A stretch of 64,000 nucleotides of DNA from Candidatus Nomurabacteria bacterium (GTDB taxonomy: Bacteria > Patescibacteriota > Minisyncoccia > Phycocordibacterales > UBA9973). The position numbers and the translations under genes are program-made. The notes below the pieces were generated by a model, which had not been told where the DNA came from, made no database searches, and saw only the letters and a program-made list of their open reading frames with translations. Below, one piece after another: positions 30,726 through 31,689 of this stretch. The stretch is taken from NCBI GenBank assembly GCA_963832025.1, contig CAWHSF010000003.1, positions 207,665 through 271,664 of the forward strand, given 5' to 3'. The stretch's first letter is position 1. Each line of letters starts with the position of its first letter.

Positions 30726-31625
30726 CTATTTCTGACAATTTTCGCAAAAAATCGTTGTCCTTCCTGCAACTATAGTTTTTGTAAGTGGTTTTTTGCAATT
30801 TGGACATTTTTCTCCATCTTTTCCATAAACTTTGTGTTCTCTGGCGTAATTGCCACGGGTATTATCTAAGAGGCGATAGGTCGCCACAGACGAACCTCCA
30901 ACTTTAATAGCTCGCTTTATAATGCGAATTATTGCTTTGTGTAATTGCTTGCTTTCTTTTTTTGAGATACTCATGGCTTGTCTATCTCCACGTATTTTTG
31001 CCTCAAACAAACTTTCGTCCGCATATATATTTCCTAGCCCAGTTACAATTTTCTGATCCATTAACACAGCCTTAATCTTCCCTTTTTTATTTTTCAGAGA
31101 GTCAAAAAAATATTTTTGGCTGAATTTTTGAGATAATGGTTCCAGCCCGTACGTAGCAAAATGGTTTCCATATTCAAATGTTTTAGTGTCGGGGTAGTAA
31201 AGAACGTACCCAAACATTCTGGTGTCATTGTAGTACAAAACTCCATTACTTAATTTAAATATAATATGTGAATGTTTGTTTGGCAGTTCGGTTTCCGAGA
31301 GCTCAATGGGATGACCACCCATAATTGCGTTCTGCCCATCTTTTTTCTGATATACAAACTGCCCAGACATTTTTAAATGAGCAAGGATAATTTTCTTATG
31401 AGTTAATTTGAAAATGAGGTTCTTAGCTCGTCTTTCTACGGCAACAAATTTTTCGCCAACGACGCCAGTTATAAATTCTCCTTTCTTTTTTGTGGAAATT
31501 TTTCGTAACGTTCCTTTACCAGAAACGAGTTTGGGTTTTCTGATTTCTACACTGAGAATTTTTTGGTTTAGGATATTTTTTACTAAACCCATTCTTAGGT
31601 TTTCAACCTCTGGTAATTCTGGCAT
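30726..31625 (-). CDS. mutM: formamidopyrimidine-DNA glycosylase
   Basis: N-terminal MPELPEVE (catalytic Pro2); H2TH region; C-terminal zinc finger CPNC...CENC. Confidence 0.85.
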   Translation of the reverse strand: MPELPEVENLRMGLVKNILNQKILSVEIRKPKLVSGKGTLRKISTKKKGEFITGVVGEKFVAVERRAKNLIFKLTHKKIILAHLKMSGQFVYQKKDGQNAIMGGHPIELSETELPNKHSHIIFKLSNGVLYYNDTRMFGYVLYYPDTKTFEYGNHFATYGLEPLSQKFSQKYFFDSLKNKKGKIKAVLMDQKIVTGLGNIYADESLFEAKIRGDRQAMSISKKESKQLHKAIIRIIKRAIKVGGSSVATYRLLDNTRGNYAREHKVYGKDGEKCPNCKKPLTKTIVAGRTTIFCENCQK

Positions 31626-31689
31626 CCCATTAGAAAATTAAAATTATAATACCTTTTCTTTTTCCACGTTAGCTGATTTTCTAACGGGA
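31625..31689 (-). repeat. intercistronic hairpin cassette, family G copy 4 (3' arm ends on mutM ATG)
   Basis: Minus strand: left arm TCCCGTTAGAAAAT (31689-31676). Proximal complement CTAACG (31672-31667). Right arm ATTTTCTAATGGGA (31638-31625), followed by TG. Starts 11 nt after the ruvA stop. Confidence 0.7.

What the first reader, a model, noticed from the sequence alone, without database searches (positions are those of the whole stretch)
31625..31689. Family G copy on the minus strand between ruvA and mutM
Read on the minus strand, TCCCGTTAGAAAAT starts 11 nt after the ruvA stop. It is followed by the proximal complement CTAACG, then the distal complement ATTTTCTAATGGGA, which ends on the mutM ATG (MPELPEV, where the initiator Met must be removed to expose the catalytic Pro2). 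The strand-correct orientation in all four copies argues that the element acts at the RNA level.
Basis: seen in the sequence. Interest (0 to 1): 0.6.

Follow-up and report, generated by a model that had tools for sequence, protein, structure and literature searches.

The report
Start-codon-hugging mobile hairpin element (MITE)
The hairpin between ruvA and mutM is a small non-coding copy of a mobile DNA family, apparently undescribed, from ultra-small (Patescibacteria) bacteria that lands on gene start codons and rebuilds the ATG with its own last base; full-length relatives encode only a 95-residue GIY-YIG nuclease.

Summary
On the minus strand, TCCCGTTAGAAAAT (31689-31676) starts 11 nt after the ruvA stop. 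CTAACG follows, and ATTTTCTAATGGGA (31638-31625) ends on the A of the mutM ATG. Three more copies in the window have the same anatomy.

It is not primarily an RNA regulator. It is a MITE-like mobile element:
- The terminal inverted repeat is exactly 13 bp (TCCCGTNNNAAAT).
- Most relatives carry 4-bp target duplications, mostly TGAA.
- Interiors are unrelated between copies.
- The element is absent from the same site in the closest relatives.

In 94 of 142 copies from related metagenomes, the terminal A plus the flanking TG is the start codon of a long ORF. Full-length 280-bp relatives carry the same repeats. They encode a 95-aa GIY-YIG nuclease whose reading frame opens on the duplicated host ATG. 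It ends on TGA overlapping the rebuilt ATG, or on TAA inside the 3' repeat.

RNA and translation effects are likely but secondary.

The closest described system is the Ssn GIY-YIG nuclease family with its hairpin repeats. This copy lacks a target duplication and carries an unexplained ACTTG left junction.

The parts
31625..31689 (-). Copy D of the element (65 bp), from 5' inverted repeat to 3' inverted repeat. This is the finding.
   Evidence: Its TIR matches the family consensus TCCCGTTAGAAA(A/T) found in metagenomic copies.
31676..31689 (-). 5' arm / terminal inverted repeat TCCCGTTAGAAAAT
   Evidence: The family TIR is 13 bp.
31667..31672 (-). Internal 'proximal complement' CTAACG. It is a degenerate third half-site and forms a 6-bp hairpin with an 8-nt loop with the 5' arm.
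   Evidence: The feature recurs with fixed polarity in 26 of 94 copies.
31639..31666 (-). A/T-rich interior with a -10-like TATAAT (31648-31643). No canonical promoter was called.
   Evidence: -10-like boxes show no orientation bias in the family.
31625..31638 (-). 3' arm / terminal inverted repeat ATTTTCTAATGGGA. Its last base (31625) is the A of the mutM ATG.
31690..31694 (-). Left junction ACTTG. This is the unexplained A-C-N-Y-G junction shared by all 16 copies without a target duplication. The A is probably the original start-codon A.
31700..32266 (-). ruvA (188 aa). Its stop codon lies 10 nt upstream of the element.
30726..31625 (-). mutM/fpg (299 aa, MPELPEV...). Its start codon is completed by the element.
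28767..28834 (+). Copy C, between the uvrA stop (28758-28760) and the uvrC ATG (28834). Left junction GACTTG. Has a proximal hairpin TCCCGTA/TACGGGA.
10954..11021 (+). Copy B, upstream of an 85-aa ORF (ATG at 11021).
3530..3607 (+). Copy A, flanked by ATGAG ... TGAA (a near-perfect target duplication). Lies upstream of a 381-aa secreted-type protein (ATG at 3607).

Best explanation
The 65-bp sequence is a non-autonomous (MITE-like) copy of a mobile-element family of Patescibacteria.

Family members have these features:
- 13-bp terminal inverted repeats, TCCCGTNNNAAAT ... ATTTNNNACGGGA.
- Insertion into the T-G-N-N that follows the A of a start codon, most often ATGAA, usually duplicating those 4 bp.
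- An element that ends in A. The right-hand junction GGGA|TG therefore re-creates the ATG, and the host ORF stays intact.

Full-length members are 280 bp and consist of nothing but the two repeats and one GIY-YIG nuclease ORF of 94-95 codons.
- The ORF is read from the duplicated host ATG.
- It stops on TGA overlapping the rebuilt ATG, or on TAA inside the 3' repeat.
- The element therefore borrows the host gene's transcription and translation start and hands ribosomes on by termination-reinitiation.
- That nuclease is inferred, not shown, to mobilise the short copies in trans.

Copy D landed on the mutM start codon in this lineage only.

In the ruvA-mutM transcript, its repeats must fold into a 14-bp stem that holds the A of the AUG. 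The ruvA stop lies 10 nt from the stem base. The organism hardly uses Shine-Dalgarno sites. I infer that mutM is translated by ribosomes that terminate on ruvA next to the stem base and re-initiate on the adjacent AUG. The internal half-site hairpin would compete with the long stem. The RNA hairpin is a consequence of the transposon's repeats that the host tolerates or exploits, not a dedicated riboregulator.

The confidence given applies to the identity as a mobile-element copy. I put the nuclease being the mobilising enzyme at about 0.55, and the reinitiation route for mutM at about 0.4.
For: Shown for the element family:
- The source is a Ca. Nomurabacteria/Paceibacterota-type genome.
- A pattern scan of metagenomes returned 120 loci. 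The TIR is sharply 13 bp.
- Identical 4-bp flanking repeats occur in 69 of 121 copies against 1 of 121 in a control. TGAA accounts for 48 of them. A few duplications are 3, 5 or 6 bp.
- Tandem insertions into the rebuilt TGAA exist (L087, L154).
- Interiors are highly diverse. Near-identical copies occur at different loci on one contig (L110).

Shown for start-codon insertion:
- 49 of 52 perfect-TGAA copies sit on the start of a long ORF. About 22% would be expected if all non-coding and start-codon TGAA sites were equally tolerated (p about 1e-28).
- Original leaderless promoters or SD sites remain upstream of the left ATGAA.
- Of 63 such insertions, 9 are at ATGA stop/start overlaps, 30 are within 40 nt of an upstream gene's end, and 24 are promoter-proximal.

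Shown for gain and loss at the same sites:
- The mutM start carries an element in only 5 of about 80 relatives. These are scattered across the MutM tree, and the nearest relatives are empty (L001: TAAAAACCCATG).
- The uvrA-uvrC junction is filled only in the window and L017.

Shown for the full-length elements:
- L131 and L154 carry them.
- Pfam GIY-YIG matches at E about 1e-17.
- 674 protein clusters were found, mostly exactly 95 aa, with repeat-encoded termini MNPVRD... and ...SLTG.
- Seven different host genes carry full-length elements. At the five looked-up sites the junctions read ATGAA|TCCCGT(T/A)AGAGAT...ATCTC(T/A)AACGGGA|TGAA, with a 4-nt ATGA overlap onto the host gene.
- Some MITEs share the 3' subterminal TTTCCTAT with them.

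Shown for the translation link:
- The upstream frame stays open through the MITE in 33 of 67 copies, against 13.2 +/- 3.3 in shuffles.
- In-frame copies give N-terminal extensions MNPVRN...ISNGM.
- The window genome has SD-like motifs at 2 of 56 starts and leaderless-type TAnnnT at 17 of 56.
Against: - Copy D itself has no target duplication. Its left junction is ACTTG, as in 15 other copies, and I cannot explain this.
- No GIY-YIG element lies in this 64-kb window, or in the 3-kb flanks of 80 relatives apart from one tRNA-adjacent type.
- That the GIY-YIG protein moves the elements is circumstantial. No transposase chemistry is known for this fold in bacteria.
- A conserved Met at codon 10 may be the real start of the nuclease. 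Two copies cannot be read from the host ATG (L217, L218).
- The ACT-type subfamily (copies B and C, and L013, L017, L022, L034, L041, L163) has a well-conserved interior across distant species. It recurs at mutM and uvrC. This could mean a host function rather than neutrality.
- The start-codon enrichment could be survivorship rather than targeting.
- The reinitiation mechanism for mutM is untested. The ruvA-terminating ribosome would abut the stem rather than melt it.
Confidence: 0.8

Rival explanations
1. A dedicated cis-regulatory RNA. The long-range stem sequesters the mutM AUG, and the proximal hairpin is the alternative 'on' conformation. This would make a translational switch or coupling device under selection.
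For: - The AUG is in the stem in all four window copies.
- The proximal half-site is polar: 26 copies against essentially none in mirror image.
- The left junction YG can wobble-pair with the UG of the AUG.
- The ACT subfamily has a conserved interior.
- The upstream frame is kept open more often than expected.
Against: - Absent at orthologous junctions in the nearest relatives.
- Sharp 13-bp limit of pairing and no G.U excess.
- Target duplications.
- Unrelated loops.
- The same ends flank a nuclease gene.
- No Rfam family.
- z = -1.8 for this copy.
Confidence: 0.1
2. A domesticated nuclease-recognition repeat. As with the Neisseria NTS/SRM repeats recognised by Ssn GIY-YIG nucleases, the hairpins would be kept near repair and recombination genes as ssDNA cleavage or binding sites. 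These would modulate recombination or DNA uptake rather than being merely selfish.
For: - The partner protein is a ~95-aa single-domain GIY-YIG, as Ssn is (PMC11893778).
- The 5' repeat plus internal half-site gives TCCCGT-N8-ACGGGA-like hairpins resembling dRS3 ATTCCC-N8-GGGAAT.
- Copies recur at mutM, uvrC and ruvA.
Against: - The sample of relatives was centred on mutM, so the repair-gene association is biased.
- Metagenomic copies sit on all kinds of genes.
- The published SRM search motif has no hit in the window.
- Target duplications and start-codon junctions are not features of NTS.
Confidence: 0.12
3. A portable promoter or terminator cassette that insulates ruvA from mutM and drives mutM from the TATAAT in the loop.
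For: - A/T-rich loops often contain TATAAT/TATTAT-like hexamers 4-10 nt before the 3' repeat.
- The ACT subfamily has TTGATT-N15-TATTAT.
Against: - No sigma-70-type promoter or intrinsic terminator was called in copies C or D.
- -10-like boxes are as frequent in the mirror position as in the gene-facing one: 19 against 16 of 94.
- The 15-nt spacing is non-canonical.
Confidence: 0.06
4. A chance inverted repeat in A/T-rich intergenic DNA.
For: The fold z-score for this copy is only -1.8, and 3-mismatch matches to the arm are at chance level.
Against: The same 13-bp ends, spacing and ATG junction occur in well over a hundred copies elsewhere.
Confidence: 0.01

Closest known systems
Ssn GIY-YIG single-strand nucleases with NTS/SRM hairpin repeats (Chenal et al., Nat Commun 2025, PMC11893778)
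   Same: - A ~94-aa single-domain GIY-YIG protein whose gene is flanked on both sides by copies of a multi-copy palindromic repeat with a TCCCG...CGGGA core.
- The authors themselves note that repeat-gene-repeat looks like an insertion sequence.
- The short internal hairpin here (TCCCGT-N8-ACGGGA) resembles dRS3/NTS.
   Different: - Here the repeats are 13-bp terminal inverted repeats at the exact ends of a 280-bp unit.
- There are target duplications, insertion on start codons, use of the host ATG and an overlapping stop, and 64-120-bp deletion derivatives.
- None of this is in that paper. 'Start codon' and Patescibacteria do not occur in its text.
- Its SRM motif does not match the window.
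- Membership of the protein in cd10448 could not be tested.
Bacterial MITEs such as Neisseria Correia/NEMIS elements, ERIC, RUP (from my own knowledge)
   Same: - Short non-coding elements with inverted ends and target duplications.
- Variable presence between strains.
- Co-transcribed with neighbouring genes as hairpins that affect mRNA fate.
   Different: - Those derive from DDE-transposase insertion sequences.
- They duplicate TA or other sites.
- They are not tied to start codons, nor to rebuilding an ATG.
REP/BIME with RAYT, and IS200/IS605 with their palindrome-associated derivatives
   Same: - Hairpin-forming repeats linked to a small nuclease that acts on single-stranded DNA.
- Many short non-autonomous copies.
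   Different: - Those use HUH/Y1 enzymes.
- They make no target duplication.
- They insert next to a fixed tetra- or pentanucleotide.
Rickettsia palindromic elements (RPE)
   Same: Small palindromic mobile elements that survive in compact genomes by landing where the host ORF remains readable. In-frame copies here add MNPVRN...ISNGM to the host protein.
   Different: RPEs insert inside coding regions and have no known partner enzyme or start-codon specificity.
Translational coupling at ATGA stop/start overlaps and termination-reinitiation
   Same: The full-length element ends ...GGGATGA. Its stop overlaps the host start, as in ordinary coupled operon junctions.
   Different: Here the junction is created by a mobile element duplicating the host's own start site.

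Membership tests
MITE / non-autonomous TIR transposon | Terminal inverted repeats of fixed length | tested here: met
   The TIR is 13 bp. Positions 1-13 are Watson-Crick in 87-94 of 94 copies, falling to 35 of 94 at position 14. Copy D pairs over 14 positions with one G.U.
MITE / non-autonomous TIR transposon | Target-site duplication flanking the element | tested here: inconclusive
   The family meets it: 69 of 121 copies have identical 4-bp flanks against 1 of 121 in a control. Copy D itself has CTTG on the left and TGCC on the right, so no duplication. Copies C and B also have none. Copy A is ATGAG/TGAA.
MITE / non-autonomous TIR transposon | Presence/absence polymorphism at orthologous sites | tested here: met
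   mutM: 5 carriers among about 80 relatives, with the nearest relatives empty. uvrA-uvrC: 2 carriers among about 30.
MITE / non-autonomous TIR transposon | A longer protein-coding element with the same ends | tested here: met
   280-bp GIY-YIG elements with TCCCGTTAGAGAT ends at seven host genes. None was found inside this window.
Ssn nuclease / SRM repeat system (PMC11893778) | Partner protein is a ~94-aa single-domain GIY-YIG | tested here: met
   PF01541 only, 94-95 aa.
Ssn nuclease / SRM repeat system (PMC11893778) | Protein belongs to CDD family cd10448 | not testable with these tools
   No CDD library and no SsnA sequence was available. The nearest solved structure is UPF0213 BH0048 (1ZG2) at E 1.4e-8. 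NCBIfam gives only a sub-threshold group I intron endonuclease hit.
Ssn nuclease / SRM repeat system (PMC11893778) | Repeat matches the published SRM search motif HGTCWY..YYVSBRH..WNVSBRG..RNCYNB | tested here: not met
   The regex finds the NTS control but gives 0 hits in the window on either strand.
Ssn nuclease / SRM repeat system (PMC11893778) | Site-specific cleavage of single-stranded DNA only | not testable with these tools
   Needs biochemistry.
Structured cis-regulatory RNA (riboswitch, thermometer, attenuator) | Conserved at orthologous positions with structure-preserving, G.U-tolerant covariation; known family match | tested here: not met
   Absent in the closest relatives. No G.U bias. 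No Rfam match at gathering score or at E<=1.
Intrinsic terminator / sigma-70 promoter | GC stem plus T-run; -35/-10 with 16-18 nt spacing | tested here: not met
   0 sites in 31560-31760 and in 28700-28900.
Integron attC site | RYYYAAC ... GTTRRRY order of core sites, next to cassettes and an integrase | tested here: not met
   Read from the sequence, the order here is the reverse (GTTAGAA ... TTCTAAC) on both strands. No integrase context was seen.
IS200/IS605-type or REP/RAYT elements | No target duplication; fixed left-flank tetranucleotide; Y1/HUH enzyme | tested here: not met
   Duplications are present. The partner is GIY-YIG. The ACNYG left junction of one subclass is reminiscent of a fixed flank, but empty sites lack it.

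The most novel reading that the evidence does not exclude
The family is a new kind of prokaryotic transposon. It is a 280-bp unit whose only gene is an Ssn-like GIY-YIG nuclease, which would make it the smallest self-mobilising DNA element known to me.

It specifically targets start codons and ATGA coupling junctions. It owns neither promoter, ribosome site, start codon nor (often) stop codon. It duplicates the host's start site, is translated from the first copy, and passes ribosomes to the host gene at the second.

The ruvA-mutM hairpin is one of its deletion derivatives. The polar internal half-site and the ACNYG junction would be adaptations that keep the host AUG usable in an organism with leaderless, non-SD translation.
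Probability: 0.45. Interest if true: 0.85.

Novelty: new variant of a known kind. Interest (0 to 1): 0.7.

Why it matters
If the reading is right, this one hairpin leads to a large mobile-element family (at least 674 protein clusters) in Candidate Phyla Radiation bacteria.

- It explains how a parasite can live in genomes that are over 90% coding: it sits on start codons and rebuilds them.
- It would give the recently described Ssn GIY-YIG nucleases a concrete mobile-element biology, with ends, target duplications and non-autonomous derivatives. The Ssn paper only raised this as a hypothesis.
- It offers a natural system for studying termination-reinitiation and leaderless initiation in organisms that almost lack Shine-Dalgarno sites.
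- It matters for annotation. Gene callers extend or truncate host ORFs and nuclease ORFs at these junctions (86-aa against 95-aa calls, and spurious N-terminal extensions such as MLRASNGMK).

Tried and rejected
- Rfam over the whole window at gathering score, and at E<=1 on the locus: only tRNAs, nothing at the element.
- Promoter and terminator consensus scans on copies C and D: none.
- Outward-promoter idea: -10-like boxes show no orientation bias, 19 against 16.
- Leaderless-promoter enrichment upstream of the left ATGAA: not above an A/T-rich background, 18 of 66 against 15 of 86.
- G.U against A.C mismatch bias as a test of RNA-level selection: no bias, but few informative sites.
- Search for a classical transposase between distant TIR pairs of 0.3-4 kb: all were pairs of separate short copies, except L131, which revealed the GIY-YIG ORF.
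- Micro-ORF hypothesis for the window copies: the frames are inconsistent (read from the sequences).
- 'Split SD bridged by hairpin': only ruvA has an SD-like GGTGG, and the organism barely uses SD.
- piggyBac/IS1380 resemblance (13-bp CCC...GGG ends, 4-5-bp T..A duplications): recalled from memory only, with no such transposase seen and no test made.
- SRM regex from the Ssn paper: no hit.
- Joint covariation counting on the 10-copy alignment A1: abandoned, because bulges put the 3' arms in different registers.
- Literature searches for MITEs in Patescibacteria, start-codon MITEs, GIY-YIG with TIR/TSD, and COG2827: nothing matching beyond the Ssn paper.
- Supplements of the Ssn paper: not held.
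- Explaining the ACNYG junction as a 2-bp TG duplication, a mutated ATGAA, a donor-flank carry-over or a CCCGT tandem duplication: none is convincing.
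Full report
**What is there**

Read on the minus strand, the ruvA ORF (31700-32266) ends with TAA at 31702-31700. The sequence that follows, in order, is:
- ten bases, AAAAAACTTG
- TCCCGTTAGAAAAT at 31689-31676
- CAG
- CTAACG at 31672-31667
- 28 A/T-rich bases containing TATTATAAT
- ATTTTCTAATGGGA at 31638-31625

The final A is the A of the ATG of a 299-aa ORF that begins MPELPEV. Precomputed Pfam hits on an identical public contig name the two genes RuvA and Fpg/MutM. Established knowledge of Fpg is that Pro2 is the catalytic nucleophile, so this start codon cannot be moved.

The two arms pair over 14 positions with one G.U. RNAfold takes that stem as the MFE at -16.3 kcal/mol, but z is only -1.8. 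The small hairpin CGUUAG/CUAACG is worth -5.0 kcal/mol.

Three further copies have the same anatomy: 3530-3607, 10954-11021 and 28767-28834, the last between uvrA and uvrC.

**Where the window comes from, and what relatives show**

MutM finds 80 loci in genomes labelled Candidatus Nomurabacteria, Paceibacterota or Patescibacteria, with a best identity of 89%.
- In most of them the ruvA-mutM spacer is 0-15 nt and has no element. L001, at 89% identity, reads TAAAAACCCATG.
- Only L022, L034, L036 and L041 carry an element at the mutM ATG.
- These carriers are scattered over a MutM distance tree, and each has non-carrier nearest neighbours.
- The uvrA-uvrC junction is filled only in the window and in L017. 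L001, at 92% identity, reads TAGGATGAAAA.

The element is thus gained or lost at precise sites. It is not conserved with the genes.

**The family**

A metagenome scan used only the conserved parts of both arms (TCCCGTNNNAAA, 40-70 nt, TTTNNNACGGGA).

In these loci plus the relatives I found 142 arm pairs.
- Complementarity is near-perfect for exactly 13 positions and random from position 14.
- The 4 bp on either side are identical in 69 of 121 copies, against 1 of 121 for a shifted control.
- TGAA accounts for 48 of these. TGTA, TGGA and TGAG are next, followed by a few TTTA, TAAA, TAGA and TTGA.
- Occasional 3-, 5- and 6-bp duplications occur.
- Interiors are very diverse.
- Near-identical copies sit at different places on one contig (L110).
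- Second copies have inserted into the TGAA rebuilt by a first one (L087, L154).

These are the hallmarks of a MITE, not of a folded regulatory RNA.

**The start-codon relationship**

The element ends in A and the duplicated target begins with TG, so the right junction always reads GGGA|TG.
- In 79 of 86 oriented copies that ATG opens an ORF of at least 60 codons or runs to the contig end, against 0 and 2 in the other frames. A wider set gives 94 of 142.
- The left flank is A-T-G-A-A in about 70 of 86. This is the original start codon, with its own leaderless-type promoter or SD still upstream (for example L184, L187, L129, L102, L138).
- Among perfect TGAA duplications, 49 of 52 are on ORF starts.
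- In the window itself there are 745 TGAA/TTCA sites. Of these, 45 are in non-coding DNA and about 13 are at ATGAA starts. Random insertion followed by loss of all coding-region hits would therefore give about 22%, with p about 1e-28.
- That expectation assumes every non-coding site is harmless. Survivorship cannot be excluded as the cause.
- Of 63 such insertions, 9 are in ATGA stop/start overlaps, 30 lie within 40 nt of an upstream gene's end, and 24 are promoter-proximal.

**The coding relatives**

Translating from every NTG-NN-TCCCG junction uncovered two ORFs of 94-95 codons, in L131 and L154. They start on the left ATGAx, read the 5' repeat as (S/N)PVR, and end in the 3' repeat. Both are GIY-YIG domains (PF01541, E about 1e-17).

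A protein search found 674 clusters. Most are exactly 95 aa, with N-termini MNPVRD... and C-termini ...RFLSLTG.

Contexts for five of them, plus L131 and L154, give seven different host genes:
- an unknown 67-aa ORF
- a transaldolase
- a glycosyltransferase
- DNA polymerase I
- a cyclase
- a KsgA-like gene
- a 112-aa ORF

At all five looked-up sites (L202, L205, L208, L214, L216) the junctions are identical: ATGAA|TCCCGT(T/A)AGAGAT ... ATCTC(T/A)AACGGGA|TGAA. The nuclease stop TGA overlaps the host ATG. L154 has the same ATGAA junction and TGA overlap, with its own repeat variant. In L131 the flanks are ATGAG and TGAA, and the stop is the TAA inside the repeat, 4 nt before the ATG.

The unit between the duplications is 280 bp. 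Some short copies share the subterminal TTTCCTAT with these units. Short and long copies also co-occur on contigs (L131, L154). I therefore read the short copies as deletion derivatives.

One caveat applies. A Met at codon 10 is conserved, and in L217 and L218 the frame from the host ATG is closed. The nuclease can therefore also be started internally.

**Is there an RNA or translation layer?**

- An internal extra half-site (CGGG, usually ACGGGA) lies within 25 nt of the gene-distal repeat in 26 of 94 oriented copies. The mirror arrangement is essentially absent: 2 CCCG, and 0 YCCCG.
- The frame opened by the left ATG runs through the whole short element to the TAA or TGA at the 3' repeat, or in frame into the host gene, in 33 of 67 copies. 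Loop shuffles give 13.2 +/- 3.3, with a maximum of 24 in 500.
- The window genome has SD-like motifs at only 2 of 56 gene starts and leaderless-type TAnnnT-N6-ATG at 17 of 56.

Together these suggest, by inference, that ribosomes start on the original ATG, traverse the element, and re-initiate on the rebuilt ATG. Arrangements that would lock the AUG in a local hairpin appear to be selected against.

There is no G.U excess among arm mismatches, no orientation bias of -10-like boxes, no canonical promoter or terminator, and no Rfam match.

**Copy D specifically**

Copy D belongs to a subclass with no target duplication. This subclass comprises window copies C and D, together with L013, L017, L022, L034, L036, L041, L163, L087, L114, L131, L110, L117 and L105.

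In all 16 copies, the five bases left of the repeat are A-C-N-Y-G, whatever the right flank. Empty/filled pairs are L010 against L034, and L001 against the window. They indicate that the A is the host's start-codon A and that the inserted DNA is CYTG plus the element. I could not explain this junction.

For D there is no upstream ATG, so the uORF route is not available. The ruvA stop is 10 nt from the stem base. I infer reinitiation by ribosomes terminating on ruvA, with the proximal hairpin competing with the long stem. This step is untested.

**Comparison with what is known**

Literature searches found no description of MITEs in Patescibacteria, of start-codon-rebuilding elements, or of GIY-YIG elements with inverted ends and target duplications.

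The closest system is the Ssn family (PMC11893778).
- It consists of 94-aa single-domain GIY-YIG nucleases that cut single-stranded DNA next to multi-copy hairpin repeats. These are NTS/SRM, with core ATTCCCGCG...CGCGGGAAT.
- The repeats often flank the nuclease gene on both sides.
- The authors remark that this architecture looks like an insertion sequence, and they propose domestication.

The similarity of protein size and fold and of the repeat core is clear. However, the published SRM motif does not match the window. Assignment to cd10448 could not be tested. The nearest solved structure is UPF0213 BH0048.

Correia/NEMIS-type MITEs, REP/RAYT, IS200/IS605 derivatives and Rickettsia palindromic elements are functional analogues. 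Each fails on defining features (see the membership table).

**Verdict**

The finding is real. Its RNA-regulator interpretation is only partly right. The best-supported identity is a non-autonomous member of a start-codon-inserting, GIY-YIG-associated mobile-element family.

That family appears to be undescribed in the literature I could search. It would be of considerable interest if the nuclease is shown to mobilise it.

Noticed in passing
window 29195-29286 (+) and 26509-26600 (+): A 92-nt element with perfect 25-nt inverted arms lies in frame inside uvrC. It adds about 29 residues (LSEKKNFDSSSLLRVRSGSHTSQNSSFRK) that the L017 UvrC lacks. A core 79% similar, with its own 20-nt arms, lies inside uvrA. 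This looks like a second palindromic family, inserting in coding regions like Rickettsia RPEs.
   Followed up: partly
window 29824-29860: The uvrC reading frame stops at 29826 and resumes in another frame (29855-30142). Relatives have one continuous ORF. This is a frameshift, a pseudogene or an assembly error.
   Followed up: partly
window 30634-30717, 36571-36654, 32682-32722: An 84-nt repeat family, with two direct copies 85% alike and one partial inverted copy, sits after gene 3' ends. Its GC hairpin CTGGCAAAGCTTTGCCAG changes compensatorily to CTCCGCAAGCTTGCGGAG and CTGGCGAAGCTTCGCCAG. There is no meaningful Rfam match. Fold z is -2.1 and -2.7 on the two strands.
   Followed up: partly
window, all gene starts: The genome almost lacks Shine-Dalgarno motifs (2 of 56 starts), and about a third of starts have TAnnnT 6-7 nt upstream of the ATG (leaderless type). 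In relatives, divergent genes have start codons only about 16 nt apart, with overlapping -10 boxes.
   Followed up: partly
window 60927-61240: An exact 157-nt tandem duplication begins inside the 3' end of tRNA-Arg(tct) (60869-60941). Each unit has a hairpin GGGCACAAAAATA...TATTTTTGTGCCC.
   Followed up: no
window 45035-48967 (-): A 1310-aa ORF is built largely of 243- and 261-nt tandem repeats at 89-100% identity. It is probably a repetitive surface protein.
   Followed up: no
L169 540-960, L073 1400-1830, L187 2560-2960: Other small GIY-YIG genes in related contigs have no TCCCGT repeats and lie directly next to tRNA genes. They appear to be a different lifestyle of the same protein fold.
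   Followed up: no
L131 12797-12802 and junction: Insertion of the GIY-YIG element changed the C-terminus of the upstream hisS ORF. It now ends ...IYESR* inside the 5' repeat, where the empty site would have read ...IYEG*. This shows that these insertions can remodel overlapping gene ends.
   Followed up: partly
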